A stretch of 32,000 nucleotides of DNA from Thermodesulfobacterium commune DSM 2178 (lineage in GTDB: Bacteria; Desulfobacterota; Thermodesulfobacteria; Thermodesulfobacteriales; Thermodesulfobacteriaceae), in NCBI RefSeq assembly GCF_000734015.1, contig NZ_CP008796.1:1590001-1622000 (forward strand). The letters are read 5' to 3'. A program made the translations under genes and the position numbers. Below the pieces are notes generated by a model that worked only from the letters and a program-made list of their open reading frames with translations, had not been told where the DNA came from and did no database searches. This document shows, in pieces, positions 4,167-18,043 of this stretch; the first letter of the stretch is position 1; each line of letters begins with the position of its first letter.

Positions 4167-5609
4167 TTGTTTAGAAAAGAAATTGATTTTCTGGGAGAAA
4201 AACTTGTTCCACAGGAAGCCTACTATGGTATTCACACCTTAAGGGCCTTAGAAAATTTTCCGCTATCTGAAGAAAGGGTTCATAGAGAGCTTGTCTGGGC
4301 TATAGGTTTGGTTAAAAAAGCCTGTGCCTTTGCTAACAAAGAGCTTGGTTTTTTAGAGGAAAAAAAGGCTTATGCTATTTTAGAGGCCTGTGAAGAACTT
4401 GCTGAGGGAAGGTTTGATGACCAAATTCTAATCCATCCTCTGGCAGGAGGTGCAGGCACCTCCTTTAACATGAACGTTAACGAAGTCATTGCTAATCGTG
4501 CTCTTGAAATTCTGGGTCATCCTAAAGGAAGGTATGAGATCGTGCATCCTATAGAAGACGTAAACCTACATCAGTCAACCAACGATGTTTTCCCAACCTC
4601 AGTGAAGATAGCGGTTTTAAGACTTTTGAAGGAGTTGGCTCAAGAGGTAGCACTTCTTCAAGGAGAGTTTCAGAAAAAGGAAAAAGAGTTTGCCCAAGTC
4701 TTAAAGGTTGGTAGGACTGAGATGCAAGATGCTTGCCCTGTAACTTTAGGGCAAGAATTTGGAGCTTGGGCTGAAGCCTTAAATCGAGACTGGTGGAGGT
4801 TAAATAAAGCCTCAGAAAGGGTAAGACAGGTAAACCTTGGAGGAACAGCTGTAGGTACAGGTCTAAACTGCCCCAACGAATTCGTAGAAATAGCCATAGA
4901 AAAGTTGAGAGAAATTACAGGACTTCCGGTGGCTAAAGCAGAAAACCTCTTTGAGGCTACACAAAATCTGGATGCTCTTTGTGAAGTTTCTGGGTTTTTG
5001 AAAACCTTAGCGGCAAACCTTATTAAAATAGCAGGAGACCTAAGATTTCTTTCTTCTGGACCTAAGGCAGGTATAGGAGAAATTAAACTTCCAGAGTTGC
5101 AGGCTGGTTCCTCTATCATGCCAGGAAAGGTGAACCCGGTTGTTCCTGAGATGGTAATTCAAGTAGGTATAAAGACGATAGCAGCAGACCATGCCATAAC
5201 TTTGGGATGTAGCCTTGGTAATTTAGAGTTAAACCCTTTTTTACCGCTTATCTCTCAAGAACTTATCACAAGCTTAAAGCTTCTTAAAAAAAGTTGTAAT
5301 ATCCTTAGAGAAAAATGTATATCAGGCATAACTGTTAATCAAGAACGATGTAAAGAATTGTTTAACCAAAGTGCTTGTGTGATCACAGCCTTTAGTCCCT
5401 ATTTAGGTTATGAAGTTTGTGCAGAGGTTTATAAAGAGGCTGTGAGTTCAGGTAAAAGGGTAGAAGAGATCTTGTTGGCTCGAGGTTATTTCACTGAAGA
5501 AGAGTTAAGGTTGATACTTGATCCTCAGGAGCTTACTACCCCAGGAATTGCCGGGTTAGAAAAGTTAAAAGAAATAATACAAAAAAGGGGGGATAAAGAA
5601 TGTTTTTAA
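4167..5609 (+). CDS. Aspartate ammonia-lyase / class II fumarase superfamily protein (aspartase-like)
   Basis: 480-aa ORF with a TTG start 9 nt after AAGGAGG. It carries the superfamily signature GSSIMPGKVNPV plus TEMQDACPVTLGQEF and HQSTNDVFPT. Its stop overlaps the hydG start. Confidence 0.85.
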   Translation: MFRKEIDFLGEKLVPQEAYYGIHTLRALENFPLSEERVHRELVWAIGLVKKACAFANKELGFLEEKKAYAILEACEELAEGRFDDQILIHPLAGGAGTSFNMNVNEVIANRALEILGHPKGRYEIVHPIEDVNLHQSTNDVFPTSVKIAVLRLLKELAQEVALLQGEFQKKEKEFAQVLKVGRTEMQDACPVTLGQEFGAWAEALNRDWWRLNKASERVRQVNLGGTAVGTGLNCPNEFVEIAIEKLREITGLPVAKAENLFEATQNLDALCEVSGFLKTLAANLIKIAGDLRFLSSGPKAGIGEIKLPELQAGSSIMPGKVNPVVPEMVIQVGIKTIAADHAITLGCSLGNLELNPFLPLISQELITSLKLLKKSCNILREKCISGITVNQERCKELFNQSACVITAFSPYLGYEVCAEVYKEAVSSGKRVEEILLARGYFTEEELRLILDPQELTTPGIAGLEKLKEIIQKRGDKECF

Positions 5610-7108
5610 ACTTTGAAACGGTAGAGACACAAAGTCTGGCAGATCAGATAATAAAAGAAAATGAAATAGAAAGGTATTTAGAGAAGGGAAGGGACTTTAT
5701 CAACGACGAGGAAATTTGGGAAAAATTAAACAAACATGTTGAGCCAGACCCGGTTAGGGTAAGAGAAATTTTAGCCAAGTCTCTTGCTATCGAGACCCTT
5801 GAACCTGATGAACTGGCGGTTTTGATAAACGTCAAAGACCCGGAACTTTGGGAAGAAATGTTTGCTACGGCAAGAGAGATTAAAAAGAAGGTATACGACA
5901 ACCGGATTGTTACCTTTGCGCCACTTTATTGTGGAAATCTTTGCATCAACAACTGTCTTTATTGTGGTTTTAGAAGAGAAAACAAGGTAATCAAGAGAAG
6001 GGTACTTACCATAGAAGAGGTTAAAAGAGAAGCAGAGGTTTTAGCAGGAGAGATAGGGCATAAAAGGCTGATAGTGGTTTATGGAGAGCATCCTGCTACC
6101 GGGGCTGAATATATTAGAGATACGATAGAGGCTATCTATTCGGTAAAGGTGAAGACCCGAAGGGGATATGGACAGATCAGGAGGGTAAACGTTAACGCTG
6201 CCCCTATGTCTATAGACGAGCTCAAGATGCTTAAGGAAGTAGGCATAGGAACTTATCAGGTGTTTCAAGAGACCTATCATCACGAAACCTATGCCCAAAT
6301 CCATCCCAAAGGAACGGTAAAACATCATTATCAGTGGAGGCTTTATTGTCATCACAGAGCTTTAGAGGCAGGTGTAGATGATGTAGGACTGGGGGTGCTT
6401 TTTGGTCTTTATGACTGGAGGTTTGAGTTGATGGGACTTTTATACCATGCACGAGACCTTGAGAAAAAGTTTGGGATAGGCCCACATACCATTTCCTTTC
6501 CCAGGCTTGAACCTGCGGCTAATACCCCCTTTGTGCAGGAGACAAAATATAAAGTTTCAGACGAGGATTTTAAAAAAGTAATCTGTTTAATCAGGCTGGC
6601 TGTCCCATATACGGGTATGATACTTACCGCAAGAGAACCTGCTCATATAAGAAGAGAAATCTTAGGTTTAGGAATTGTGACCCAAACGGATGCCTCAACC
6701 AAGATAGGAATAGGAGCTTATTCTGATAGGTATACAGAACAAGAGTTAGAAAGACAGCAGTTTCAGATAGGAGATCCTCGGAGTCTTGAAGAAGTAATAA
6801 GGGAACTTGCTGAGATGGGGTATATCACAAGCTTTTGCACTGCAGGTTATCGTTGTGGAAGAACAGGAGAAAGGATAATGGACCTCCTGGTTAAAGGGAA
6901 AGAACGAATCTTTTGTAAGTTAAATGCTGTCCTTACCTTTAAAGAATGGCTTGATGATTTTGCCTCAGAAGAAACTAAGGAGGTAGCCCAAAAGGTTATA
7001 GAAAAAGAGATGGAAGAACTTAAAGGTATGGTTCCTGAAGGGGTTTATCAAAAACTTTTAGAGTATTATCAGAGGATTGAGAATGGAGAGAGAGACCTTT
7101 ATTTCTAA
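5600..7108 (+). CDS. hydG: [FeFe] hydrogenase maturase HydG (radical SAM tyrosine lyase)
   Basis: 502-aa ORF with the radical SAM motif CINNCLYCGFRR after a roughly 110-aa N-terminal region. The ThiH/HydG-like core is followed by a C-terminal Cys region, FCTAGYRCGRTGERIMDL..IFC. It sits in a hydG-X-hydF-hydE context. Confidence 0.88.
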   Translation: MFLNFETVETQSLADQIIKENEIERYLEKGRDFINDEEIWEKLNKHVEPDPVRVREILAKSLAIETLEPDELAVLINVKDPELWEEMFATAREIKKKVYDNRIVTFAPLYCGNLCINNCLYCGFRRENKVIKRRVLTIEEVKREAEVLAGEIGHKRLIVVYGEHPATGAEYIRDTIEAIYSVKVKTRRGYGQIRRVNVNAAPMSIDELKMLKEVGIGTYQVFQETYHHETYAQIHPKGTVKHHYQWRLYCHHRALEAGVDDVGLGVLFGLYDWRFELMGLLYHARDLEKKFGIGPHTISFPRLEPAANTPFVQETKYKVSDEDFKKVICLIRLAVPYTGMILTAREPAHIRREILGLGIVTQTDASTKIGIGAYSDRYTEQELERQQFQIGDPRSLEEVIRELAEMGYITSFCTAGYRCGRTGERIMDLLVKGKERIFCKLNAVLTFKEWLDDFASEETKEVAQKVIEKEMEELKGMVPEGVYQKLLEYYQRIENGERDLYF

Positions 7109-7343
7109 GTTTACAGCCTTAGCTGAAAGGATAAAACAAACTTATGGAGTAAATCTTTGGTTGGTTGAGGTGCTTGGAAAAAGGCATTCTTATGTAGCTG
7201 GCCACAAAGAAGATAGCTTTTTGCCTCCAGAACCTATATACCTTAACGAGAGATTTGCGGTTGTTTCTAACGAGTGGGAGAAAATCCCAGAGGAAGAAAG
7301 AAAACAACTGATAAGTTTTTTAAAAGAGGATCTTTTAAAATGA
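7083..7343 (+). CDS. Small hypothetical protein (86 aa) between hydG and hydF
   Basis: ATG at 7083 lies 6 nt after GAGGA; the track's TTG at 7077 is less likely. The 5' end overlaps the hydG 3' end, and the TGA stop overlaps the hydF ATG (ATGA). I recognise no motif. The call rests on operon position and coupling signals. Confidence 0.55.
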   Translation: MERETFISKFTALAERIKQTYGVNLWLVEVLGKRHSYVAGHKEDSFLPPEPIYLNERFAVVSNEWEKIPEEERKQLISFLKEDLLK

Positions 7344-8620
7344 ATATACCTAAGGGACAAAGGCTTCACATAGCCCTTTTTGGAAGGAGAAACGTGGGAA
7401 AATCTTCTTTGATTAATGCTTTAACCGGACAAGAACTTGCGATTGTTTCGGATATTCCAGGAACTACCACTGACCCGGTAGAAAAAAGTATGGAGATTCT
7501 TCCCTTAGGGCCTGTGGTAATCATAGATACAGCTGGAATTGACGATGTAGGTAAACTTGGGGAGTTGCGGAAAAAGAAGTCTTATGAAGTGTTAAATAAA
7601 GCAGATTTGGTGTTGCTGGTAATTGACCCTATGACAGGTTTCGGAGAATTTGAGGAAGAGGTAGTAAAAAAGGCTAAGGAGTATGATACTCCGTTAGTGC
7701 ATGTGATAAATAAAATAGACCTTTATCCTCAGGCTAAAACACAAAAATTTCCAGAACCTAAGGTTTTCGTAAGTGCTAAGACTAAAGAAGGGATAGACGA
7801 GTTAAAACAGGTGATCATAAAGCATGCACCCAAAGACTGGGCTCTTCCAACTATAGTAGGAGATTTGATAAAACCTGGAGATTTTGTGGTATGTGTAGTC
7901 CCGGTAGATAAAGCAGCTCCTAAAGGTAGACTTATTTTGCCTCAACAGATGGTTATAAGAGACATTTTAGATAATGAAGCTATCGCCTTGGTGGTAAAAG
8001 AAAGGGAGCTTAGGTTTGTTTTTGAAAAGACCAAGGTTAAACCAAGTCTGGTGATAACAGATGCCTCGGTTTACACCAAAGTTTCTGCAGACACTCCACC
8101 AGACATAAGGCTTACGTCTTTTTCTGTTCTTTTCGCAAGATATAAGGGGGATTTGCAAACCCTGGTAGAAGGGGTTCTTGCTGTAAAGACACTTAAGCCT
8201 GGAGATAAAGTGTTGATCGCAGAGGCTTGTACCCATCATCCTGTAGAAGATGATATAGGTAGGGTAAAAATTCCCAGATGGCTTAGGGCTCAGGTAGGAC
8301 AAGACCTTGAAATAGAGGTAAAAGCAGGTGGAGGGCCTCTTCCTGAAAACCTTGAGCAATATAAACTGATCGTTCATTGCGGAGCTTGCATGCTAAATAG
8401 AAAAGAAATGCTTTCAAGGATTATGCAGGCTAAGAGTGCCAAGGTTCCTATCGTAAATTATGGGGTAATGTTGGCCTACATGCATGGGATTTTAAAAAGA
8501 GCTCTTTCTCCTTTTCCTCATTTGCAACGGTTGGTTGTTTCTGAAATCAGAGATTATAAAAAAATCGCAGATGACTTTAAATGCATAAAAGCTTTCTTTT
8601 TAAAAAGAACAAACAACTAA
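7340..8620 (+). CDS. hydF: [FeFe] hydrogenase maturase HydF (GTPase scaffold)
   Basis: GTPase motifs are present: GRRNVGKSS (P-loop), DTAG and NKID. The C-terminal cluster motif is EACTHH...HCGAC. I moved the start from 7274 to ATG 7340 (MNIPKGQRLHIALFGRR), which overlaps the upstream stop. Confidence 0.9.
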   Translation: MNIPKGQRLHIALFGRRNVGKSSLINALTGQELAIVSDIPGTTTDPVEKSMEILPLGPVVIIDTAGIDDVGKLGELRKKKSYEVLNKADLVLLVIDPMTGFGEFEEEVVKKAKEYDTPLVHVINKIDLYPQAKTQKFPEPKVFVSAKTKEGIDELKQVIIKHAPKDWALPTIVGDLIKPGDFVVCVVPVDKAAPKGRLILPQQMVIRDILDNEAIALVVKERELRFVFEKTKVKPSLVITDASVYTKVSADTPPDIRLTSFSVLFARYKGDLQTLVEGVLAVKTLKPGDKVLIAEACTHHPVEDDIGRVKIPRWLRAQVGQDLEIEVKAGGGPLPENLEQYKLIVHCGACMLNRKEMLSRIMQAKSAKVPIVNYGVMLAYMHGILKRALSPFPHLQRLVVSEIRDYKKIADDFKCIKAFFLKRTNN

Positions 8621-9618
8621 CCGAAAACAACCTGATAGAAAAGGCTTTATCAGGGATAAAGTTTTCAAAAGAAGAAATTGCCTTTCTTCTTTTAGAAGCC
8701 AACCCTGAGTGGGTATATGAGATAGCTAATGAGATAAAGAAACGAGTAAAAGGAAATGTAGTTTATTTAAGAGCGATCATCGAGTTTTCCAACTATTGTA
8801 GAAACAACTGCCTTTATTGTGGCATAAGAAGAGATAACAGGGAACTCAAACGTTATCGCATGAAGGAAGAAGAAATTTTAGAAATAGCAGAAAAAATAAG
8901 CAAACAAGGTTTTAAGACCATAGTTTTACAATCTGGTGAGGACCCTTTTTGGGATGCTAAGAGGTTGAGTCGTTTGATTAAAGAAATTAAAAATTTAGGG
9001 GTGGTAGTTACCCTATCTGTAGGTGAAATGGATTATGAGGATTATAAGGTTTTAAAAGAGGCTGGAGCTGACAGGTTTTTACTCAAACATGAAACGATAG
9101 ACAAAAGACTTTTTAGTTGGTTAAAGCCAGATACTAATTTAACAAAGAGGGTTCGTTGTTTAAACTGGTTGAAGAAGCTTGGATATGAAACTGGAACAGG
9201 TTGTATCGTAGGGTTACCTGGACAGAGAATAGAGACCTTGGTCGAAGACCTTCTTTTTTTACAAGAAATTAGCCCAGAGATGGTAGGGCATGGCCCATTT
9301 ATTCCTCATCCTCAAACTCCTCTGGCTTTTTTCCCTTCTGGAAACCCTTGGTTAACCCTTAAACTGATAGCCTTAACCAGGATGATTCTTCCAAAAGCTA
9401 ACATTCCTGCCACTACAGCTTTAAACGTTTTAGCACCTGATTTAAGGTTTAAGGCTTTTCTAGCTGGTGCTAATGTTCTTATGCCAGACTTAACTCCAGA
9501 TCAATATAAGCTCCATTATGAAATATATCCAGGAAAAGGAAGTTACCGGATAAATTTAGAGGAATATTTTCGGTTTTTTGAAAAAGAAAACCTAAGGACT
9601 GACCTGAAACCTGTTTAG
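8581..9618 (+). CDS. hydE: [FeFe] hydrogenase maturase HydE (radical SAM, biotin-synthase-like)
   Basis: 345-aa ORF with radical SAM motif CRNNCLYCGIRRDN. It has BioB/HydE-like length and layout and is the last gene of the hyd cluster. Confidence 0.85.
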   Translation: MHKSFLFKKNKQLTENNLIEKALSGIKFSKEEIAFLLLEANPEWVYEIANEIKKRVKGNVVYLRAIIEFSNYCRNNCLYCGIRRDNRELKRYRMKEEEILEIAEKISKQGFKTIVLQSGEDPFWDAKRLSRLIKEIKNLGVVVTLSVGEMDYEDYKVLKEAGADRFLLKHETIDKRLFSWLKPDTNLTKRVRCLNWLKKLGYETGTGCIVGLPGQRIETLVEDLLFLQEISPEMVGHGPFIPHPQTPLAFFPSGNPWLTLKLIALTRMILPKANIPATTALNVLAPDLRFKAFLAGANVLMPDLTPDQYKLHYEIYPGKGSYRINLEEYFRFFEKENLRTDLKPV

Positions 9619-9656: not shown

Positions 9657-10061
9657 TTAAGGAATAAACGGAACGTTTAAAAGTTTTAGCCCCAAGTAAG
9701 TTATCCCTAAACAAGCCACTCTTTTAACCCAGACAGGGCTTAATCTTTTAGCAATTCTAGGTCCTACAAATCCGGCAGCAATTGCTCCTACAGCCATGAC
9801 TACAAACAATAAAAGGTCAGTTTGTCCAAAAAAGAAGTAACGTGAGCTTGCCATTAAGGTGTTGAAGAAAATGGCTAAGAGAGAACTACCGACCACCACA
9901 TAAATCGGAAGACCCATAATTACTGTCATAAGGGGAACTACAAAAGGTCCTCCTCCAAAACCACCTAAACTGGAGGCAACTGCTATGAGAAAACCTCCTA
10001 TGGCACCTATTATCATGTTAGCATAAAACTCTTGTCCCCAAAATTCTATTCTTAACTTCAT
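9657..10061 (-). CDS. TauE/SafE (DUF81) family membrane protein, second 4-TM half
   Basis: Four hydrophobic segments and the motif GGFGGGPFVVPLM. ATG at 10061 lies 8 nt downstream of AGGAGG. The track's GTG at 10070 overlaps the SD and is unlikely. Confidence 0.7.
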   Translation of the reverse strand: MKLRIEFWGQEFYANMIIGAIGGFLIAVASSLGGFGGGPFVVPLMTVIMGLPIYVVVGSSLLAIFFNTLMASSRYFFFGQTDLLLFVVMAVGAIAAGFVGPRIAKRLSPVWVKRVACLGITYLGLKLLNVPFIP

Positions 10062-10073
10062 GGTTTTCACCTC

Positions 10074-11348
10074 CTAACTAGATTTTTTTTCCTTAGCTTC
10101 TTTAGCACGTTTTAGGTACTCCTGAAGTATAGCCCTTTCCTTCTTATTCTTTTCAAGATATCCTGGTGTTGTCTGCCAGAAGAGAAGGGCAGCAAGGATC
10201 AACAGGATAATACCAAAGATGAACTTATACTCATCTACAGTTACAAACTGGTTTAATAGAGGACCTATAAAACCACCGATTAGCATAAAAATACCTACTC
10301 CTATACCAAGTTTCCAGTTGATAAATCCTATTTTTGAATAGTTGTAGATTCCTGCGGCTTGACTAAAGAGAACTGTTGGCATAACTGAACCAGCAACCAC
10401 ACCGTGAGGCAATCCATAGATGAGAATCAATAAGGGATTTAAGATAAAACCACCACCTGCTCCCATGATCACCCCAAAGGTACAAATAACAAAGGATAAA
10501 ATGAGGGGTCCAAAAATGTTGGTAGAAGTTCCAGCTACAGGAAAATATACAGTAGGAAAGGAAATTTGATGGGTTAGTTGAATTGGATCGCTTTTTACTT
10601 CCTTGTTGGCTACAGCTAATACAGTAAAATCTCCTTTAGGGGCATTACCAGGAAGAGTTATCTCTGCTTCAAAGGTACCATCGGGATTATTCTTGATTTT
10701 AGTAAGCACAAAGATTTTTTCAAAATCCTTTAACCTGGTTTGAATTAATCTGGCAGCCTCTTTGGTTATTTCTTTTTTATCAGTAAGAGGATCTAATTTA
10801 ATACCTCTTGAACCTATAATGGCTCTTAGAACTGTAGATTTCCACACATCGATTTGTTTAATTTCTTTAGGAGGAGTGATAAAGGCAACATTAGCGTTGC
10901 TTTCTCTTAAAAATTCTCCTATTTTCCATTTCTTATTTTGTTTGTACTTTTGATAGATTTCCTTTACCGGTTTTTCTTCTACCGTACCGTTTTTGTCTAT
11001 CTTAGCTATATAGTCCTCATTAATCCAAATTTGATAGAAAGCAGGTATTTCTTTACTTAAATAAAATTTAAAATCTTTCCTATCAAGTCTACTTACCTGG
11101 ACTTTTTCTTTTGAAGTGATTTCGATGAAGTTTACTTTGTAGCCCTCAGGGACTTTACCTGTAAGTTTAATCTTTTCACCACCTTTGAAAGAGGTTTTGT
11201 CAGCCTTTAACTCAATCTTTAAAGGTATTGCTTCAGCCTCAGGTTTGGTAGTATTCCCCTGTGGCTGAGCTAAAAGGTTTTTAGAAAAAACTAATAAAAA
11301 GAAAAACAAAAGAAAAGACCATAAGTTTAACTTAAACTTGTACCGCAT
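10074..11348 (-). CDS. Signal peptide + ~290-aa extracytoplasmic domain fused to the first 4-TM half of a TauE/SafE (DUF81) permease
   Basis: Start taken at ATG 11348 (MRYKFKLNLWSFLLFFFLLVFSKNLLA), with GGAGGGAGG upstream. The C-terminal third has four TM segments with GAGGGFILNPLL. The stop is a TAG at 10074-10076. Confidence 0.7.
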   Translation of the reverse strand: MRYKFKLNLWSFLLFFFLLVFSKNLLAQPQGNTTKPEAEAIPLKIELKADKTSFKGGEKIKLTGKVPEGYKVNFIEITSKEKVQVSRLDRKDFKFYLSKEIPAFYQIWINEDYIAKIDKNGTVEEKPVKEIYQKYKQNKKWKIGEFLRESNANVAFITPPKEIKQIDVWKSTVLRAIIGSRGIKLDPLTDKKEITKEAARLIQTRLKDFEKIFVLTKIKNNPDGTFEAEITLPGNAPKGDFTVLAVANKEVKSDPIQLTHQISFPTVYFPVAGTSTNIFGPLILSFVICTFGVIMGAGGGFILNPLLILIYGLPHGVVAGSVMPTVLFSQAAGIYNYSKIGFINWKLGIGVGIFMLIGGFIGPLLNQFVTVDEYKFIFGIILLILAALLFWQTTPGYLEKNKKERAILQEYLKRAKEAKEKKSS

Positions 11349-11534
11349 AACCTGCCTCCCTCCTTTGGATTTTTGAGGTTTCTCGATCAAATATCATGCC
11401 TAAACAAAAAATGGTTAAAATTAGAAAAATAAAGAATTTTAAAAGATAAAAAATATATAGGTTTTGATACTTTGGACCTTTAAGCGCAGGGGGTTGTCCC
11501 GTTAAGGACAGATCGTTACAAAAGGTTTTGTTAG

Positions 11535-12974
11535 TTAGGTAAAAAACCTCAGGTTGTATTTTCTGAAAAGGAATTCTTGGAAGGTTTTGATCGTTTTGAA
11601 AACCTGTTTTAGTTGATCTCTGTCTTTTTTAGAAAGTTCTTGCGGGTTTAAATAGTTGTCAGGGGGTTGTCCGGTTTGGAGTTTTTTGGCTTGATTCAAA
11701 AATTGAAGAGAAAGGATAAACCTGTATCCTTCTTTTAATTCAGAGGCAAAGTCTAAAGAGAGAATCCCTTCCTCTTTTAGAGCATCGATTCTATCAAAGG
11801 TATTTGTATGCCAGAGGTTGTACTCTAAAGCCAGAGCTCTAATCCCCTGGACTATGGGAAAAATGGCTGTTTTTTTAAGGTCTAATTTACCTTTGTTAGG
11901 GCCTTCTTTTTCGGTTATAAACCTTCCCAAGAAATTAAGAGGTGATTCAAACCTTATGGCTTCTGCCGCAAGACACACGATAAGTCCTTTATTTTTACTT
12001 ATTTTTTCTTTTATCCAACCTCTGATCTCCTTTTCTATCTCTTCATCTCCATAAACCATTCGAAAATCTAAAAAAATACAAAGATTAAGCAGAGCCTCTT
12101 TTTGAGAACAGTCCATCCAGTTAGAAAGCCGCTTTTTCCAGGTTTGCAGATCTCCTCGCCAAAGGGGATTAGAAATCATAACCCCACCAGGACAAGGAGG
12201 AAATCCTACTTTTAAAAGATTTTCGATAAAAGTAGAAGAAAAGCTTTCAAAAAAAAGGTCTACCTCTTTTTTTCTATCTGGCAAATCTTCATAGATTAAG
12301 GCGTTATCTTGGTCGGTTTTAAAACTTTGTTCTTTTCTTCCTTCACTTCCAAGTACAAAGAATCCAAACTTAGCCGAAAAATAAAGCTCTGTCTCCTTTA
12401 AGGTTATCTCCCAGGTTTTTTTTATAAACCTGTCGTTTATTTCTGCAAGGTATTTCCCTAAGTACTCCGGGTTAAAACCTTCGGAAATTTGATTTAACAA
12501 TGCTTCTTTTACCAGGCTATAAAGTTTGGCTAACTCCTCTAACTCGTGGGCCAACTCCACTTGATATAGAAGAGAAACCAGGTTTTTGCTTTGAAAACTT
12601 ATGATGTCAGTGTCTTCAAGTACTCCTTGAAGGATTCCTTTATCAAAAACCGCTACTTTTCTTAGTCTTTTTTCTGCCATAAGGAGGATGGCTTCAAACA
12701 AACGGTGGTCTGTAGAAAGGCTGACAAGAGGAAAGGTGGCTATTTCTTTAGCTTTTATTCCAAAAGGGTCTTTCCGTTGATATACCACTTTTTGTAAAAT
12801 GTCCCTTTCAGTGATAATCCCTAAGCCTTCTTTTCCTTGCACCACAACAAAACTGTACTCTTTTTCTACCATAAGTTTAATTACTTTATCTAAGGAATCT
12901 TCTTCCCCCACAATAAGAGGAGTTTTTAAGGGTAGATTTTTTAAAGGTTGATCAAAAAATGAATTCTGGAGCAT
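11535..12974 (-). CDS. CBS-pair + DUF294-type nucleotidyltransferase + DUF294_C protein (catalytic motif intact)
   Basis: 479-aa ORF. It has a CBS-like N-terminus (GIITERDIL...VAVFDKGILQGVLEDTDI) and the nucleotidyltransferase motif LGSEGRKEQSFKTDQDNALI. The C-terminal helical domain is similar to that of ORF 13641-15455. Confidence 0.75.
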   Translation of the reverse strand: MLQNSFFDQPLKNLPLKTPLIVGEEDSLDKVIKLMVEKEYSFVVVQGKEGLGIITERDILQKVVYQRKDPFGIKAKEIATFPLVSLSTDHRLFEAILLMAEKRLRKVAVFDKGILQGVLEDTDIISFQSKNLVSLLYQVELAHELEELAKLYSLVKEALLNQISEGFNPEYLGKYLAEINDRFIKKTWEITLKETELYFSAKFGFFVLGSEGRKEQSFKTDQDNALIYEDLPDRKKEVDLFFESFSSTFIENLLKVGFPPCPGGVMISNPLWRGDLQTWKKRLSNWMDCSQKEALLNLCIFLDFRMVYGDEEIEKEIRGWIKEKISKNKGLIVCLAAEAIRFESPLNFLGRFITEKEGPNKGKLDLKKTAIFPIVQGIRALALEYNLWHTNTFDRIDALKEEGILSLDFASELKEGYRFILSLQFLNQAKKLQTGQPPDNYLNPQELSKKDRDQLKQVFKTIKTFQEFLFRKYNLRFFT

Positions 12975-12975
12975 T

Positions 12976-13623
12976 TTAAATAATTTTTAGCGGTAGTTGT
13001 TTCAGTTTTTTATTCCTGTAAGAATAAACTAATTTTAAAAAAAGCAAAGCAGTCATGTAGGCATCTTCTAAAGCATTGTGAAAACTGGTGGTAGGTAAAT
13101 CATATTCTTCTAACAGTTCATTAAGCTTAGGAATTCTATCTAAGGTCTTTTTAGGATAAAGGTCTAAGACATCAAACCCATAAAAAGAGAGGTTAAGGTT
13201 TAGTTCTTCTTTGAGATGTTTTTTTAGCATTTCTAAGTCAAACTCTAAAAAATATCCTACCAATACTGCACCCTTGGTAAACTCTAAAAATTGATGCAAG
13301 GCCTCCTTTCTTTCAAGACCGTTTTTAAGTTTGTCTGGTGTAATCCCGTGAATCTTGATAGAGTCTTCAATTCTACACAGGTCTGTTTTTAAGTATAAAA
13401 TTAGTTTTTCAGAAAAAGAAAGGGTAAGATCAACAATCTTATAAGCACCTACAGAGATAACCTCGTCTTTTTTTAAATCAAGCCCTGTGGTTTCGGTGTC
13501 TATCACCACGAAAGTGGTATCTTTTACTTTTTTATTTAGGTCGACCTCCCAACTTAAGTTTTTCTTTTTTCGAAAAAAAGTATAGTAAGTCCTCTTTAAA
13601 GTTGTGGTTAACACCTTCCACAC
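12976..13623 (-). CDS. DEDDh 3'-5' exonuclease (DnaQ / DNA polymerase III epsilon-like)
   Basis: 215-aa ORF with Exo I VIDTETTGL, Exo II GYFLEFDLEML and Exo III FHNALEDAYMTA. The gap to the downstream gene is 1 nt. Confidence 0.8.
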   Translation of the reverse strand: MWKVLTTTLKRTYYTFFRKKKNLSWEVDLNKKVKDTTFVVIDTETTGLDLKKDEVISVGAYKIVDLTLSFSEKLILYLKTDLCRIEDSIKIHGITPDKLKNGLERKEALHQFLEFTKGAVLVGYFLEFDLEMLKKHLKEELNLNLSFYGFDVLDLYPKKTLDRIPKLNELLEEYDLPTTSFHNALEDAYMTALLFLKLVYSYRNKKLKQLPLKII

Positions 13624-13640
13624 CTTCTTAAGATCCTCGT

Positions 13641-15455
13641 TTAACTTAAATAGCTTAGACGGTATTTTTCAAAAAGCATTTTTTGTAAATTTTCTATGAA
13701 TTTAAAGACTTCTTTTAAAAGGTTTAGGTCTCCTTTTTCTAACTCAGATGGGTCTAAATAATCGTGAGGTTCTTGTTCTCGTTTAAAATTATCTATCTGA
13801 ATTTTAAAACGTAAGGTGGTAAGAAATTTATAAGCCTCTTTCAGGTCTTTAGCTGTTTCAGGTTTAATACTTCCTGAGGATTCTAAACAAGAAATCCGTT
13901 TAAACGTATTCATGGTTTTAATCCCCTGTTCTAAACTAAGTACCCTTACCATACAAACCAAAGGTAAAACCCCTGATTTAAACAGGTTTAATTTACCTTT
14001 AAAAGGACCAGATTTTTCTACCAGGAGTTCTTTAAACAAACCTAAAGGTGGTTTGAGTTTAACTGCATCCAAGGCTAAATATGGTAAAATACGGTCGTTT
14101 TTTTTAATCTTTTGTAAAATATTTTGGTAAAAAAAGTCTGCCTTTTCAGGTTGGATACCTATGAAACGAAGGTCAAAGAAATTAGCTTTTTTACCTATAT
14201 CTTTTAGGTCAGGATAGGCTATCCAATGAGAAAAAGTTTTTTCCCATTCGTTTAAGGTTTTTACCCAGTAAGGTTGGGTAAGATATTCCTCTTCTATTTC
14301 AACCCCTAAAAACTTCAGATTTTTGGCCAATAACAAAGCAACCTCAAAAGCTTCTTCTGAGTTGTTTTTAATTAGAAAAATTTTTAGTTTTGTTTTAAAA
14401 CTGGCTTCTCTTCTTCCATGGGCTCCGATAACCATTAGGCTTGGTAGAAGAGAAAGGTTTCTTTCAGATAGGGTTAAAAGAACTGCCTTTTTGATGATCC
14501 CATCCCTTATTTCAGAAAGATATCTTCCTATCAACTCTGGGTCTTTTTCTTTTATGGCAAAATCTATGGCAGAATAAAAACAGTGGTAATAAATTTTTTT
14601 TAGTTCTTCTAAAGAGTTGGTTCTTTCTATTTCTTTAGTTATGGTAATAAGGTTTTTGCTGCCAAGGGAGATGATGTCGGTATCCTCTAAAATACCTACA
14701 GGTATTCCTTCATCAACCACCACTATTTTCCTTATACGGTGTTGTGTCATAAGAAGCATAGCTTGAGATAAGGGGGCTTCTTTTTCTAAATACACCAAAG
14801 GGAAAGAAGCTATATTTTTGGCTTTAGTTTCTTTTTTATCCAACCCCTGATATAGAAGTTTTTTGATAACGTCCCGCTCAGTTATAATCCCATATCCTTT
14901 TTCTAATTTAACTAAACAAGCGGTGACGTTTTTTTCTACCATCTCCTGAATAACCTTTTCTACGGAGTTTTCTCCATCTACGATGACAGGGGGTTTTAGG
15001 TTCAATTTTGAGAGAGGGACAGAGCTAAAAGTTCCCCACTGGTCTTTTTTCTGGTTTAAAGCTTCTGCCAGTTTTTGAGCCAGTTTTTGGGTATAAAAAC
15101 TCTGGACTACTGAATAGTTTTGAAAAAGTTTTAAAAAATCTTCTTTTTTAATTAAAAATACCACGGTATCTTCTACCGCACGGGCTGAATGGTCAAGTTC
15201 CTGATCAGTTATTAAGGGTAAATAACCAAAGGTTTCTCCTTCTTGAAGTTGGTCTAAGATAGTACCTTTTTTTTCTAAGACTACATATCCTTTCCTTATA
15301 AGATATAAATATTCAGAGAGGTCTTTTTCCCGGTAGATAACCTCGTTTTTAGGATAGACTTTTACCTTTATTTTTTCTACTAAAGTAGATATAACAGATG
15401 AGGGGAGCCCCCTAAAAGGGGGTACTTCCCTTATAAACCTTTCTGCATCAAGCAT
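13641..15455 (-). CDS. Cyclic-nucleotide-binding domain + CBS pair + DUF294-type nucleotidyltransferase-like domain (degenerate catalytic motif) + DUF294_C
   Basis: 604-aa ORF. The N-terminal cNMP-binding-like region reads FRGLP...YREKD...YLIRKGYV...GETFGY. It is followed by a CBS pair (GIITERDVI...IVVVDEGIPVGILEDTDI) and a nucleotidyltransferase-like segment, IGAHGRREASFKTKLKIFLI. Confidence 0.75.
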   Translation of the reverse strand: MLDAERFIREVPPFRGLPSSVISTLVEKIKVKVYPKNEVIYREKDLSEYLYLIRKGYVVLEKKGTILDQLQEGETFGYLPLITDQELDHSARAVEDTVVFLIKKEDFLKLFQNYSVVQSFYTQKLAQKLAEALNQKKDQWGTFSSVPLSKLNLKPPVIVDGENSVEKVIQEMVEKNVTACLVKLEKGYGIITERDVIKKLLYQGLDKKETKAKNIASFPLVYLEKEAPLSQAMLLMTQHRIRKIVVVDEGIPVGILEDTDIISLGSKNLITITKEIERTNSLEELKKIYYHCFYSAIDFAIKEKDPELIGRYLSEIRDGIIKKAVLLTLSERNLSLLPSLMVIGAHGRREASFKTKLKIFLIKNNSEEAFEVALLLAKNLKFLGVEIEEEYLTQPYWVKTLNEWEKTFSHWIAYPDLKDIGKKANFFDLRFIGIQPEKADFFYQNILQKIKKNDRILPYLALDAVKLKPPLGLFKELLVEKSGPFKGKLNLFKSGVLPLVCMVRVLSLEQGIKTMNTFKRISCLESSGSIKPETAKDLKEAYKFLTTLRFKIQIDNFKREQEPHDYLDPSELEKGDLNLLKEVFKFIENLQKMLFEKYRLSYLS

Positions 15456-15456
15456 G

Positions 15457-17001
15457 CTATTCTATCCCCACACCCAGATAGGTTCTAACCTTTTCCTCTT
15501 CAAACTTTTCTTGAGCTTCTTTTTCTGGTGTCAAAAGAGATACTAAGATAGCCATGATAAAACTTGCTGGCATAGAAATAAGAGCAGGATTTTTCCAAGG
15601 GAAGATGGGAGCAGGGTTTTTAAAAATGTCTACCCAAACAGTGGGACTCAAGATGATAAGCACCACAGAAAGGGTAACCCCTGTCAAGATGCCTGCTACT
15701 ACACCTGCAGTAGAAAATTTTTTCCAGAAGATAGAAAGAAGCAGAGAAGGAAAGTTAGCACTGGCAGCTATAGCAAAGGCAAGTCCTACCATAAAAGCTA
15801 CGTTTTGTCCCTTAAAAGCTATACCAAGAAAAATCGCAAGGATTCCTAAGATAAGGGTGGCTAACCTTGCCACTTTTACCTGTTCCTCTTCTGTGGCTCT
15901 TCCTTTTTTTATTACGTTGGTGTATAAGTCATGAGAAAGGGCTCCTGCTCCTGCTAAAGTAAGTCCTGCAACCACCGCAAGAATGGTAGCAAAGGCTACC
16001 GCAGCAATAAATCCTAAAAATATCGTTCCTCCCACAGCCTCCGCCAAAAGAGGAGCTGCCATATTTCCGCCTTTTTCTATACTTTTAATCAAGTTTTCTC
16101 CTACTATAGCAGCCGAACCAAATCCTATGATAAAAGTGAGAATGTAAAAGTAACCGATAAATCCTGTAGCATAAAAAACCGACTTTCTGGCTTCTTTAGC
16201 GTCAGGAACGGTATAAAATCTCATAAGTATGTGAGGGAGACCTGCTGTTCCAAACATAAGGGCTATACCAAGAGAAATAGCATCCCATGGATTGGCTACA
16301 AGACCTCCTGGAAGAAGCCTTTTTTCTCCATACTTTTCACTGATAAAACCAAACAATTCATTAAAGCTAAAACCAAACTTAACCAACGTGAAAATGGCAA
16401 GCACCGTAGCTCCACCAAGCAAAAGACAAGCCTTGATAATCTGAACCCAGGTAGTAGCAATCATGCCACCGAAAAGAACATAAATAATCATTATAGTCCC
16501 TACTAAAACCACCGCCAAATCATAGGGTAATCCAAACAAAAGTTTTATAAGAGAACCAGCTCCTACCATCTGAGCAATAAGGTAAAGAAGAACGGTAGCC
16601 AAAGACCCAAAAGAAGAGGCAATCCTTATAGGCTTTTGCTTAAGCCTGTAAGCTACCACATCTGCAAAGGTATACTTACCAAGGTTTCTTAATTGCTCAG
16701 CTATAAGAAACATCACTATCGGCCAGCCTACCAAAAATCCGATGGAATAAATCAAACCATCATAACCTTTTAACGCTACCAACCCAGCAATCCCAAGGAA
16801 AGAGGCTGCACTCATGTAATCTCCAGCCAACGCAAGTCCATTTTGAAATCCAGTGATACTTCTTCCTGCTGCATAGTACTCAGAAGCTGTCTTAGTCCGT
16901 TTAGCAGCCAAGTAGGTAATATAAAGAGTAGTTAAAGTAAATAAAAAGAAAAACAAAATAGAAACCACGTTAGGTTGCCCTAAGGTTGTCTGCATTTCCA
17001 T
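15457..17001 (-). CDS. actP: Sodium:solute symporter family protein, cation/acetate symporter ActP-like
   Basis: 514-aa polytopic ORF of about 13 TM segments with SSF-type composition. It is immediately preceded by a DUF485/YjcH-like gene, as at characterised actP loci. Confidence 0.8.
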
Positions 17002-17018
17002 CTTACATCCCCCTTATT

Positions 17019-17312
17019 TTAATGTTTTTCTATTTCTCTTTTAATCTCTTCAACCAACCTGTCATAGACGCTGTTTGCCCAAAGGGTATAAACTCCAGTT
17101 AACAGCCAGGAAAAAATTATTACTGAAATCCCCAGAGGAATTCCTAAAGGTATTGATCCGGTAACCTTAATGGCTAAAAAATCTTTTTTAAAAGCTAAAA
17201 GGTAGATAAAACCATAATAAATTAACAACTGGATAAAAGTAAGAGCAAAAGCTACCTTGTTTTTTTGAGACATTAACGTTTGAAACTTAGGAGAACTTAA
17301 CACCTCCTTCAT
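17019..17312 (-). CDS. DUF485 (YjcH-like) small inner-membrane protein
   Basis: Two TM segments. Start taken at ATG 17312 (MKEVLSSPKFQTLMSQKNK), 9 nt after GGAGG; the track start at 17363 lacks an SD. It lies directly upstream of the actP-like gene. Confidence 0.7.
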   Translation of the reverse strand: MKEVLSSPKFQTLMSQKNKVAFALTFIQLLIYYGFIYLLAFKKDFLAIKVTGSIPLGIPLGISVIIFSWLLTGVYTLWANSVYDRLVEEIKREIEKH

Positions 17313-17449
17313 ATTTAAACACCTCCTTTTTTGAGATTTATTTTCTGATAAAATAGATAGCAATAGTTATGCCAAAACAAAGAATATAGAATTATCAATG
17401 ATTAGATGGGAAAACACCAAAAATAGTAAAAACTTTGAGGAAAATTTCC

Positions 17450-18043
17450 TCAATTATTTTTAAAGCCCAAACAAGACAAGAGATGAGATCTTAACTGGGG
17501 TATCCCCTTAGATTCTTTACAGGAGATTAGGAAAAGAGGGGTTTCTGGATTAGGTTTGAATGTTTTTTGATAAACAGAGGCTTGACGTTCTACTTCTCTA
17601 AAGGATAAAGTATCTATCTTGTTTAAGACTATACAGTGAGGTTTTTTAAGGTGTTTTACAAACTCAACCAGCTGGATGTCTGCTTCATCGGGATTACGTC
17701 TTATATCAAAAATAAGTACAAGATTTCTAAAGTCTCTCACTGCTTTTAAATATCCCTCTACCAGGTATTGCCAGTGTTTTTTTACCTCAACAGGGACTTT
17801 AGCAAACCCGTAACCAGGTAGGTCTACTAAATAAAACTTAAAATCTATTCTAAAAAAGTTTAAGGCTTTGGTAAAGCCAGGAGTAGAGGACACTTTGGCT
17901 ACCTTTTTACGGTTTAAAAAGGCATTGATTAAAGAGGATTTACCTACGTTTGACCTTCCTAAAAAGGCAATTTCAGGAAATTCTGGAGGAGGCAGGTCCT
18001 CTAACTTAAAAACACTTTTAACAAACTCGATATGCTTAAACAT
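17450..18043 (-). CDS. engB: Ribosome-biogenesis GTPase EngB/YsxC/YihA
   Basis: 197-aa ORF with GRSNVGKSSLINAF (G1), DLPGYG (G3) and NKID (G4). Length and layout are typical of EngB. Confidence 0.88.
   Translation of the reverse strand: MFKHIEFVKSVFKLEDLPPPEFPEIAFLGRSNVGKSSLINAFLNRKKVAKVSSTPGFTKALNFFRIDFKFYLVDLPGYGFAKVPVEVKKHWQYLVEGYLKAVRDFRNLVLIFDIRRNPDEADIQLVEFVKHLKKPHCIVLNKIDTLSFREVERQASVYQKTFKPNPETPLFLISCKESKGIPQLRSHLLSCLGFKNN

What the first reader, a model, noticed from the sequence alone, without database searches (positions are those of the whole stretch)
12306..14426. The cNMP-sensing DUF294 paralogue has lost the catalytic DxD, while the sensor-less paralogue keeps it
In the 479-aa protein the nucleotidyltransferase motif is LGSEGRKEQSFKTDQDNALI (nt 12306-12350), with Gly-Ser and D-x-D intact. 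At the aligned position of the 604-aa protein the sequence is IGAHGRREASFKTKLKIFLI (nt 14382-14426). Both aspartates are replaced by Lys and the Ser by His. The protein with the cyclic-nucleotide-binding domain therefore looks like a pseudoenzyme, and the one without a cNMP domain looks catalytically competent. This suggests a regulatory/catalytic heteromer with the exonuclease gene between the two.
Basis: seen in the sequence. Interest (0 to 1): 0.65.

Follow-up and report, generated by a model that had tools for sequence, protein, structure and literature searches.

The report
Catalytically dead nucleotidyltransferase paralogue in operon
In a Thermodesulfobacterium acetate-transporter operon, an uncharacterised sensor-nucleotidyltransferase gene was duplicated; one copy kept its extra sensor domain but lost the catalytic residues, and the other did the reverse, which gives a natural handle on a widespread protein family of unknown function.

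Summary
The 479-aa protein has an intact G-S-x11-D-x-D motif (G209..D221-Q-D223). The 604-aa protein reads G344-A-H..K356-L-K358 at the same positions in every alignment. This is not noise. The dead motif is conserved in all four known Thermodesulfobacterium lineages (55-97% identity). It is always found in the order 604 / DEDDh exonuclease / 479, downstream of a DUF485 + sodium:solute symporter pair, and under purifying selection. The two genes are sister paralogues from a lineage-specific duplication followed by complementary loss. One copy lost the CAP-like domain; the other lost the GS, DxD, PPCPG and NPxWR motifs, with divergence concentrated in the nucleotidyltransferase core. Predicted folds of both match the DrrA/GlnE protein adenylyltransferases.

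Three parts of the interpretation need correction:
- The "cNMP" domain lacks the phosphate-binding-cassette Glu and Arg, so cNMP sensing is unsupported.
- The 479-aa protein is not sensor-less, because it keeps the CBS pair.
- The heteromer is plausible but untested. Independently degenerate DUF294 proteins elsewhere sit next to an intact exonuclease with no second DUF294 gene nearby.

Verdict: a real, conserved pseudo-nucleotidyltransferase. It is a new variant of a known but biochemically uncharacterised module (COG2905 + RNase T-like exonuclease). Interest is moderate.

The parts
17019..17312 (-). DUF485 (YjcH-like) small membrane protein, first gene of the operon
   Evidence: Pfam PF04341, E 1.2e-29. 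The listed ORF starts at TTG 17363 (114 aa). Orthologues are 97-98 aa, so the internal ATG (MKEVL...) at 17312 is the likelier start.
15457..17001 (-). Sodium:solute symporter (ActP-like), 514 aa
   Evidence: Pfam SSF, E 1.9e-115. Its stop is 1 nt from the start of the 604-aa gene.
13641..15455 (-). 604-aa CAP-like / CBS pair / degenerate DUF294 / DUF294_C protein (pseudo-nucleotidyltransferase)
   Evidence: Pfam hits. AF2 model with pLDDT 88.5 still matches GlnE 1v4a and DrrA 6yx5. Conserved in four lineages. dN/dS 0.08-0.18.
15177..15239 (-). Phosphate-binding-cassette-equivalent stretch of the CAP-like domain (aa 73-93, GETFGYLPLITDQELDHSARA), without the canonical Glu and Arg
   Evidence: Alignments to solved cNMP domains and a family alignment that includes E. 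coli CRP.
14382..14426 (-). Degenerate catalytic motif G344-A-H-G-R-R-E-A-S-F-K-T-K356-L-K358
14172..14174 (-). Asp428 in FFDLR, the inferred third carboxylate, retained
   Evidence: Invariant column D428/R430. Its assignment as the third metal ligand is an inference from the DrrA/GlnE pattern and from its position just before a beta-strand in the models.
12976..13623 (-). 215-aa DEDDh (RNase T / DnaQ-like) exonuclease
   Evidence: Pfam RNase_T, E 2.2e-25. The D-T-E, D and H-x4-D motifs align with E. coli DnaQ. It lies 17 nt after the 604-aa gene, behind a GAGGA, and 1 nt before the 479-aa gene.
11535..12974 (-). 479-aa CBS pair / intact DUF294 / DUF294_C protein (predicted active nucleotidyltransferase)
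   Evidence: Pfam hits. AF2 model with pLDDT 92.5. Top fold matches are DrrA 6yx5_B, GlnE 1v4a and 3k7d.
12306..12350 (-). Intact catalytic motif G209-S-E-G-R-K-E-Q-S-F-K-T-D221-Q-D223 (G-x11-D-x-D)
12066..12068 (-). Asp303 in FLDFR, the inferred third carboxylate
   Evidence: Invariant column. The assignment is inferred, as for Asp428.

Best explanation
The window (Thermodesulfobacterium, about 97% identical to T. thermophilum DSM 1276) carries the widespread but uncharacterised COG2905 module, a sensor-coupled GlnE/DrrA-like nucleotidyltransferase plus a DEDDh exonuclease. It sits inside a monocarboxylate-transporter operon (DUF485-SSF).

In the Thermodesulfobacterium ancestor the nucleotidyltransferase gene was duplicated in place, and the copies degenerated in complementary ways. 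The 604-aa copy kept the CAP-like domain, the CBS pair and the C-terminal helical domain. It lost the metal-binding Asp pair, the Ser, and two further active-site motifs. It is therefore a nucleotidyltransferase-dead protein that can only act by binding: as a ligand sensor, scaffold or regulator. The 479-aa copy lost the CAP-like domain and kept a complete active site and the CBS pair.

Shown: the loss, its conservation, the purifying selection, the sister relationship, the retained fold and the operon packing.

Inferred: the three products work together. The dead paralogue would pass a metabolic signal (an adenosyl ligand at the CBS pair and an unknown, probably non-cNMP ligand at the CAP-like domain) to the exonuclease and/or to the live paralogue. 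The live paralogue would nucleotidylylate a target connected with acetate/pyruvate uptake, and the exonuclease would be the opposing phosphodiester-cleaving activity.
For: - Register and loss.
- Further motif loss: in addition to DxD, PPCPG and NPxWR are gone, and there are 7-aa and 2-aa deletions in the core.
- Divergence is confined to the NTase core. The 604-aa protein is 27-35% identical to outgroups there, against 49-53% for the 479-aa protein. The CBS and DUF294_C regions are about equally conserved in both.
- Purifying selection acts on all three genes.
- The 604 and 479 clades are sisters (78% NJ bootstrap). They are nested among about 612-620-aa CAP-CBS-NTase proteins with intact motifs, and the 604 stem branch is twice as long.
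- The sister genus Caldimicrobium has one intact full-length gene plus the exonuclease.
- The triad occurs in the same order in all four lineages. The 604-type and 479-type proteins match one to one across the four lineages.
- An exhaustive HMMER search shows the dead clade as a single 50%-identity cluster (1193 bits, next hit 487 bits).
- Gene junctions are 1, 17 and 1 nt.
- Both models match DrrA and GlnE. In that enzyme class D110/D112/D150 (DrrA) and D701/D703/D753 (GS-ATase) hold the essential Mg2+, and D110A/D112A is inactive (PMC7815794).
- Fusion proteins RNase_T-CBS-DUF294-DUF294_C (P0019-P0042) tie the exonuclease to the CBS-NTase unit. Their domain order matches the exo-479 gene order here.
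- Fitness data link COG2905 to the neighbouring symporter (bioRxiv 10.1101/072470). [quoted passage not shown]
Against: - No interaction between the 604-aa, 479-aa and exonuclease proteins was or could be tested here.
- Independently degenerate DUF294 proteins (P0098 in L086, P0158 in L088, P0153 in L092) sit next to an intact exonuclease with no second DUF294 gene in the DNA held: within 8 kb for L086 and L092, while L088 is only a 4.4-kb contig. The dead protein may therefore act without the live paralogue.
- The target and the nucleotide used by any DUF294 enzyme are unknown.
- Loss of activity is inferred from sequence only.
- The NJ support for the sister relationship is moderate (78%).
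- The assignment of the third carboxylate is inferred, not read from a superposition.
Confidence: 0.55

Rival explanations
1. The two paralogues act independently, with no heteromer. The dead 604-aa protein regulates or escorts the exonuclease (or the symporter) alone, as the lone degenerate DUF294 proteins elsewhere apparently do. The 479-aa protein is a separate enzyme with its own CBS-controlled activity.
For: - L086, L088 and L092 pair a degenerate DUF294 gene with an intact DEDDh exonuclease and have no second DUF294 gene nearby.
- The canonical gene order [CAP-CBS-NTase][exo] is preserved for 604 + exo.
- exo + 479 mirrors the separate fusion architecture.
- A fusion protein with a degenerate motif also exists (P0042, IEQSN).
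Against: - The 604-type and 479-type genes co-occur strictly one to one in every known lineage.
- The losses are complementary, and the operon is tightly packed.
- The lone degenerate genomes could hold a live paralogue elsewhere; this was not checked.
Confidence: 0.3
2. The 604-aa protein is still catalytic. It would use other residues (retained Arg348, Glu350, Asp428, or the new Lys356/Lys358/His346) for a different or metal-independent reaction.
For: - G344, R348, E350 and D428/R430 are invariant even in the dead clade.
- The replacement motif IGAH[GA]R[RK]EASF[KR]T[KT]LK is itself conserved, which indicates a new constraint at this site.
- R and E are also kept in the other degenerate lineages.
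Against: - Both metal-binding Asp, the Ser, and the PPCPG and NPxWR motifs are lost together, with deletions in the core.
- In the structurally matched DrrA/GS-ATase class the Asp pair is essential, and D110A/D112A is inactive.
- The core evolves much faster in the 604 clade (45% identity between window and L003) than in the 479 clade (70%).
Confidence: 0.08
3. The 604-aa gene is a decaying duplicate (pseudogene in progress) with no function.
For: The NTase core evolves faster, and the Pfam DUF294 score is low (38.7 bits).
Against: - The ORF is full-length and intact in four lineages down to 55% identity.
- dN/dS is 0.08-0.18 overall and 0.04-0.16 in the CBS pair.
- The AF2 model is confident.
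- The degenerate motif itself is conserved.
Confidence: 0.02

Closest known systems
COG2905 / Pfam DUF294 + DUF294_C proteins with an adjacent RNase T-like exonuclease (e.g. P. putida PP_0354/PP_0353; P. aeruginosa PA3233 in the actP cluster PA3233-PA3235)
   Same: - Same domains (CAP-like, two CBS, DUF294, DUF294_C).
- Same DEDDh exonuclease neighbour.
- Same association with SSF monocarboxylate transporters.
   Different: - Here the gene is duplicated.
- The full-length copy has lost the catalytic motif, and the intact copy has lost the CAP-like domain.
- The exonuclease lies between the two copies.
- No published case of this was found.
GlnE (glutamine synthetase adenylyltransferase) and Legionella DrrA/SidM AMPylase
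   Same: - Best fold matches for both models.
- The 479-aa protein has the G-S-x11-D-x-D motif.
- A C-terminal helical domain of the KNTase_C/HEPN-related clan, with a weak Pfam GlnD_UR_UTase hit in the 604-aa protein.
- GlnE also combines two homologous NTase modules with different roles.
   Different: - The relationship is not detectable by sequence.
- The sensor domains differ (CBS and CAP-like).
- The target is unknown.
- In GlnE both NTase modules keep their catalytic Asp residues (my own knowledge), whereas here one module is dead and sits on a separate polypeptide.
RNase_T-CBS-DUF294-DUF294_C fusion proteins (about 710 aa, P0019-P0042)
   Same: The domain order of the fusion equals the gene order exo then 479 in the window. 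Both lack the CAP-like domain.
   Different: - Only 24-27% identical to the 479-aa protein, so they arose independently.
- They are single polypeptides.
- No dead paralogue is known to accompany them.
Canonical cNMP-binding domains (CRP/CAP, PKA-R, PKG, HCN)
   Same: The beta-roll fold and a Pfam cNMP_binding hit (E 5.9e-18). Fold matches have TM up to 0.87 on the target.
   Different: The phosphate-binding cassette lacks the ribose-binding Glu (Tyr78) and the phosphate-binding Arg (His89/Leu87). The same holds for the intact orthologues in Caldimicrobium and Aquificota.

Membership tests
Pfam DUF294 (PF03445) / DUF294_C (PF10335), COG2905 | Profile hits above the curated cut-offs | tested here: met
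   479-aa protein: 130.8 and 160 bits. 604-aa protein: 38.7 and 126.7 bits. Cut-offs are 21 and 22.5 bits.
Pfam DUF294 (PF03445) / DUF294_C (PF10335), COG2905 | Family-invariant active-site motif LGSEGRxEQxxxTDQDNA | tested here: not met
   Met by the 479-aa protein and not met by the 604-aa protein (IGAHGRREASFKTKLKIF). The 604-aa protein is a homologue of the family but not a catalytically typical member.
Pfam DUF294 (PF03445) / DUF294_C (PF10335), COG2905 | Adjacent DEDDh (RNase_T) exonuclease gene | tested here: met
   The gene at 12976-13623 lies between the two paralogues. An exonuclease ORF was detected in about a third of the 80 genomic loci and is fused to the NTase in P0019-P0042.
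GlnE/DrrA-type adenylyltransferases (Pol beta-like NTase fold) | Fold similarity of the NTase + C-terminal helical domain | tested here: met
   479-aa model: 6yx5_B E 1.9e-9, 1v4a 3.1e-8, 3k7d 1.8e-7. 604-aa model: 1v4a 1.4e-7, 6yx5_B 4.5e-7.
GlnE/DrrA-type adenylyltransferases (Pol beta-like NTase fold) | G-S-x11-D-x-D plus a third acidic residue that coordinate Mg2+ | tested here: not met
   The 479-aa protein has G209, S210, D221, D223 and D303 (met). The 604-aa protein has G344, A345, K356, K358 and D428 (not met). Motif definition from PMC7815794. The third-Asp assignment is inferred.
GlnE/DrrA-type adenylyltransferases (Pol beta-like NTase fold) | Nucleotidylylation of a protein side chain | not testable with these tools
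   No biochemical data exist for any DUF294 protein in the papers found.
Canonical cNMP-binding domain | Beta-roll domain recognised by the profile and by fold | tested here: met
   PF00027, E 5.9e-18. Matches PKG, PKA-R and CRP structures.
Canonical cNMP-binding domain | Phosphate-binding cassette with Gly-Glu and Arg-[Ser/Thr]-Ala contacting the ribose and the cyclic phosphate (my own knowledge of the CAP/PKA family) | tested here: not met
   FGY78 replaces FGE, and D-H89-S-A replaces R-[ST]-A. In the ungapped phmmer alignments the Arg falls on Leu87.
DEDDh 3'-5' exonucleases (RNase T / DnaQ) | Exo I D-x-E, Exo II D, Exo III H-x4-D | tested here: met
The motifs are also intact in the exonucleases of L086, L088 and L092.
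Pseudoenzyme (catalytically dead homologue kept by selection) | Loss of essential catalytic residues, conservation across species and purifying selection | tested here: met
Pseudoenzyme (catalytically dead homologue kept by selection) | Demonstrated absence of activity, and a binding or regulatory role | not testable with these tools
   Needs purified protein.

The most novel reading that the evidence does not exclude
The triad could be a self-contained writer/reader/eraser circuit. The live, CAP-less 479-aa enzyme would make a nucleotidyl mark or a small non-canonical nucleotide signal. The dead 604-aa paralogue would read it, through its non-canonical CAP-like pocket or its retained Arg348/Glu350 nucleotide site. 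The DEDDh exonuclease would erase it. Together they would gate monocarboxylate uptake.

More broadly, NTase-dead DUF294 proteins recur next to intact exonucleases. This would mean that the core job of the whole COG2905 family (about 19,000 representative proteins) is allosteric control of an exonuclease, with nucleotidyl transfer as an accessory function.
Probability: 0.1. Interest if true: 0.8.

Novelty: new variant of a known kind. Interest (0 to 1): 0.45.

Why it matters
COG2905/DUF294 proteins with their partner exonuclease are very widespread. There are 18,817 representative proteins at E<=1e-3, each standing for one cluster at 50% identity. They are strongly regulated by the acetate-responsive MxtR/ErdR system in Pseudomonas and are cofit with neighbouring symporters in fitness screens. 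No biochemical activity, substrate or ligand is known for them.

Thermodesulfobacterium has in effect done a domain-dissection experiment. Sensing (CAP-like domain) and catalysis (DxD) are split onto two proteins that are thermostable and co-expressed with the exonuclease. That makes the system attractive for reconstitution.

The survey also shows that NTase-dead versions arose several times and keep an intact exonuclease partner. This argues that binding or regulation, and not only catalysis, is central to the family. Finally, the finding warns against reading 'cNMP_binding' annotations in this family as evidence of cAMP/cGMP sensing.

Tried and rejected
- A sequence-profile search of the NTase + C-terminal region (A6) against PDB sequences found no GlnE/DrrA match. 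The only hits were chance ones at E about 0.6. A phmmer search with the 479-aa protein found only CBS proteins. The link to GlnE/DrrA therefore rests on predicted-fold comparison and a weak Pfam GlnD_UR_UTase hit.
- BLASTP of E. coli CRP against the 604-aa protein did not align the CAP-like domain. I used phmmer against PDB and an HMM alignment instead.
One of its two search patterns included the first half of the motif, which biases it against very degenerate sites. The metagenome scan used N-terminal patterns and does not share this bias.
- Literature searches for DUF294, COG2905, PA3233 and a domain-combination query gave no biochemical characterisation. Many 'DUF294' hits were DUF2946.
- The first tree script timed out. 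The tree reported is a Kimura-distance NJ tree with 200 bootstraps, not ML.
- The promoter/terminator scan showed nothing above shuffled expectation inside the operon.
- The decaying-pseudogene idea is rejected on dN/dS and ORF integrity.
- A shifted register hiding the Asp pair is rejected, because five independent alignments agree and there is no D-x-D near the aligned site in the 604-aa protein.

Full report
**1. What is in the sequence**

On the minus strand the window carries a compact gene row:
- DUF485 (17019-17312/17363)
- a sodium:solute symporter (15457-17001)
- a 604-aa protein with cNMP_binding, two CBS, DUF294 and DUF294_C hits (13641-15455)
- a 215-aa RNase_T-family exonuclease (12976-13623)
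- a 479-aa protein with two CBS, DUF294 and DUF294_C (11535-12974)

The junctions symporter/604, 604/exo and exo/479 are 1, 17 and 1 nt. The 17-nt spacer contains a GAGGA. A hairpin followed by a T-rich stretch (stem 17435-17453) separates the row from the upstream engB-like GTPase gene. The locus is 97% identical at the protein level to Thermodesulfobacterium thermophilum DSM 1276 (L006).

**2. Checking the observation**

The quoted peptides are at aa 208-227 (nt 12294-12353) and aa 343-362 (nt 14370-14429).

BLASTP aligns the two proteins over 478 residues (38% identity, E 7e-94) with no gap through the motif. MAFFT and HMM alignments with up to 187 homologues give the same register. So Ser210 corresponds to Ala345, Asp221 to Lys356 and Asp223 to Lys358.

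The 604-aa protein has also lost the family-conserved PPCPGxVM and NPxWR motifs and has 7- and 2-residue deletions in the core. It keeps Gly344, Arg348, Glu350 and the FFD428xR430 motif, which are invariant across the family.

**3. Is it more than chance or decay?**

The motif LGSEGRxEQxxxTDQDNA is close to invariant:
- 115/115 hits to the 479-aa protein keep it.
- In 80 genomic loci from many phyla, all but one of the 87 DUF294 ORFs from outside Thermodesulfobacterium that include the motif region keep it. The exception is L028 10101-11843, with TRQDH.
- All 27 non-Thermodesulfobacterium metagenome loci that include the motif region keep it.

The dead version is conserved in four lineages: IGAHGRREASFKTKLK...RTTLK and IGAHARKEASFKTKLK, at 97/94, 80 and 55-56% identity.

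Nei-Gojobori dN/dS is 0.08-0.18 for the whole 604-aa gene and 0.11-0.4 for its NTase core, with dS near saturation. The 479-aa gene and the exonuclease gene give similar values. The gene is therefore maintained by selection.

**4. Origin**

A distance tree on the shared 476 columns puts the 604 and 479 clades as sisters (78% of 200 bootstraps). Both are nested among 612-620-aa CAP-CBS-NTase proteins of Aquificota, Nitrospirota and Caldimicrobium, all of which have intact motifs. The 604 stem branch is twice as long as the 479 stem (0.435 vs 0.217).

Caldimicrobium, in the same family, has one intact 617-aa gene followed by the exonuclease, downstream of a DUF4212-SSF transporter.

The 604-aa and 479-aa proteins are about equally similar to the outgroups in the CBS pair (0.38-0.49 vs 0.36-0.40) and in DUF294_C (0.41-0.45 vs 0.44-0.46). 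In the NTase core they differ sharply (0.27-0.35 vs 0.49-0.53).

The simplest history is an in-place duplication in the Thermodesulfobacterium ancestor followed by complementary loss. The other roughly 480-aa CBS-DUF294 proteins (Desulfuromonadales, Thiocapsa) form a distant clade, so they lost the CAP-like domain independently.

**5. Distribution**

Every instance of the dead clade that I could find has the same order 604/8 - exo - 479/81:
- the window
- L006 (T. thermophilum)
- L001/L002/L093 (the sp. TA1 protein, on metagenome contigs)
- L095
- L003
- L125/L126

The 479-type proteins fall into the same four lineages (99, 83, 63 and 61% identity, then a drop to 47%).

An exhaustive HMMER search of 1.84 billion representatives returns the dead clade as one 50%-identity cluster (1193 bits, next hit 487 bits). 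The family as a whole has 18,817 hits at E<=1e-3.

**6. Does DxD loss recur elsewhere?**

It does, but not as a pair. Among the 150 best representatives for a profile of the dead clade, eight other proteins have lost one or both Asp: P0098, P0134, P0190, P0158, P0123, P0081, P0155 and P0153. They have usually also lost the PPCPG/NPxWR motifs. One exonuclease fusion protein from an earlier search (P0042) is degenerate too.

Their contexts:
- P0098 (L086): dead DUF294 + RNase_T + SSF, with no second DUF294 within 8 kb.
- P0158 (L088): dead DUF294 + RNase_T + DUF4212, on a 4.4-kb contig.
- P0153 (L092): dead DUF294 + RNase_T, with acetyl-CoA synthetase and SSF nearby.
- P0190 (L090): next to two acetyl-CoA synthetase genes.
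- P0134 (L089): next to an SNF transporter.

The partner exonucleases keep all DEDDh residues. Tandem pairs in which both DUF294 genes are intact also exist (L012 in Nitrospirota, L026). In L012 the two belong to different subfamilies.

**7. What kind of enzyme is it?**

The AF2 model of the 479-aa protein (pLDDT 92.5) matches the DrrA AMPylation domain best (6yx5_B, E 1.9e-9). Next come both nucleotidyltransferase domains of E. coli GlnE (1v4a, 3k7d). The 604-aa model (pLDDT 88.5) still matches 1v4a and 6yx5_B, so the fold is kept.

For this enzyme class the literature states that three acidic residues hold the essential Mg2+: D110/D112/D150 in DrrA and D701/D703/D753 in GS-ATase. The D110A/D112A mutant is AMPylation-deficient (PMC7815794). 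The 479-aa protein has G209-x11-D221-x-D223.

Asp303 (Asp428 in the 604-aa protein) sits just before a beta-strand in the models and is invariant. I infer it is the third ligand, but I could not superpose coordinates.

**8. The sensor domains**

The CBS pairs of both proteins are well conserved (51% identity to each other), including GIITERD. The 479-aa protein is therefore not sensor-less.

The N-terminal domain of the 604-aa protein is a genuine CAP/PKA-type beta-roll. However, its phosphate-binding cassette reads FGY78...D-H89-SA. Solved cNMP binders have FGE...R-[ST]-A at these positions. Depending on a one-residue gap, the Arg position falls on Leu87 or His89. The intact orthologues in Caldimicrobium and Aquificota lack both residues too. 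The Glu is absent from all 64 DUF294 proteins aligned, whereas an Arg in an R-T-V context occurs at that position in most Bacteroidota sequences. Canonical cNMP binding is therefore not supported for this clade, and the ligand is unknown.

**9. Function**

The published hints are:
- Fitness data in which COG2905 genes are cofit with the adjacent DUF4212/SSF transporter. [quoted passage not shown]
- P. putida PP_0354/PP_0353 depend most strongly on MxtR/ErdR. Their deletion causes only moderate growth inhibition on propionate and pyruvate, and their roles are called unclear (PMC9927547; 10.64898/2026.09.07.749794).
- PA3233 belongs to the actP cluster.

Fusion proteins RNase_T-CBS-DUF294-DUF294_C argue that the exonuclease and the CBS-NTase unit act together physically.

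My best model is that the 604-aa protein is an NTase-dead sensor/regulatory subunit. It would work with the exonuclease and the live 479-aa enzyme to control something connected with monocarboxylate uptake. The writer is a GlnE/DrrA-like nucleotidylyl transferase and the exonuclease is the opposing hydrolase. The step 'dead as a nucleotidyltransferase' is well supported by sequence. The steps 'heteromer', 'target' and 'eraser' are inference.

**10. Verdict**

The cNMP-sensing and sensor-less labels are wrong or unsupported. The heteromer remains an open hypothesis with a serious rival, namely that the dead protein acts with the exonuclease alone, as in L086 and L092.

This is a new variant of a known, uncharacterised module. 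Its interest is moderate and comes mainly from offering a natural separation-of-function system for a very large family.

Noticed in passing
P0098 in L086 8001-9890; P0158 in L088 1038-2939; P0153 in L092 8001-9953; P0190 in L090 3042-4886; P0134 in L089 832-2739: DUF294 proteins in unrelated lineages have independently lost the DxD, and usually the PPCPG/NPxWR motifs too. Three of them sit directly upstream of an intact DEDDh exonuclease with no second DUF294 gene in the DNA held (8 kb each side for L086 and L092; L088 is a 4.4-kb contig).
   Followed up: partly
P0019-P0042 (about 700-720 aa proteins from metagenomes): A widespread single-polypeptide fusion RNase_T-CBS-DUF294-DUF294_C, in which the exonuclease takes the N-terminal position that the CAP-like domain occupies elsewhere. 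One member (P0042) has a degenerate motif (IEQSN).
   Followed up: partly
window 15177-15239 (aa 73-93 of the 604-aa protein); the same region in L004, L007-L014: The 'cNMP_binding' domain of this clade lacks the phosphate-binding-cassette Glu and Arg. The Glu is missing from all 64 DUF294 proteins aligned, so the annotation 'cyclic nucleotide-binding' may be misleading for the family.
   Followed up: partly
L003 6590-7345 and L125 4745-5500 (opposite strand, just after the 481-aa gene): In the most divergent Thermodesulfobacterium-like lineage, a metallo-beta-lactamase-fold gene with a Pfam Anti-Pycsar_Apyc1 hit is inserted between the live DUF294 gene and the TauE genes. Apyc1 is a cyclic-nucleotide phosphodiesterase family. 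The gene is absent from the window and from TA1.
   Followed up: no
window 10074-11390 and 9657-10070 (minus strand): The TauE/SafE-type exporter is split into two ORFs. One is 438 aa, with a long non-TauE N-terminal region followed by the first half of the profile. The other is 137 aa and covers the second half. The split is conserved in TA1 (424 + 132 aa) and in L003/L125, so it is not a frameshift artefact.
   Followed up: partly
L012 7983-9824, 9947-11848, 11855-12547; L026 6115-7737, 7932-9884: Tandem pairs of DUF294 genes in which both keep the catalytic motif, followed by an exonuclease gene. In L012 the two belong to different subfamilies, so co-located DUF294 paralogues are not unique to Thermodesulfobacterium.
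   Followed up: partly
L028 10101-11843: A second DUF294 gene, 6 kb from an intact one, with a partly degenerate motif (TRQDH: first Asp changed to Arg). The ORF runs off the end of the locus.
   Followed up: no
window 17313-17363: The mechanical ORF for the DUF485 gene starts at TTG 17363 (114 aa). Orthologues are 97-98 aa, which points to the ATG at 17312 as the true start.
   Followed up: partly
window 17435-17453: A perfect 8-bp hairpin (TTGAGGAAA/TTTCCTCAA) with T-rich flanks on both strands, lying across the 3' end of the engB-like ORF (17450-18043) and the spacer before the transporter operon. It is probably the terminator that separates the two transcription units.
   Followed up: no
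window 5600-9618 (plus strand): By size, order and synteny with L001, the three ORFs here correspond to the [FeFe]-hydrogenase maturases: HydG (radical SAM + BATS), HydF (HydF_dimer/tetramer) and HydE (radical SAM). Pfam was not run on the window copies.
   Followed up: no
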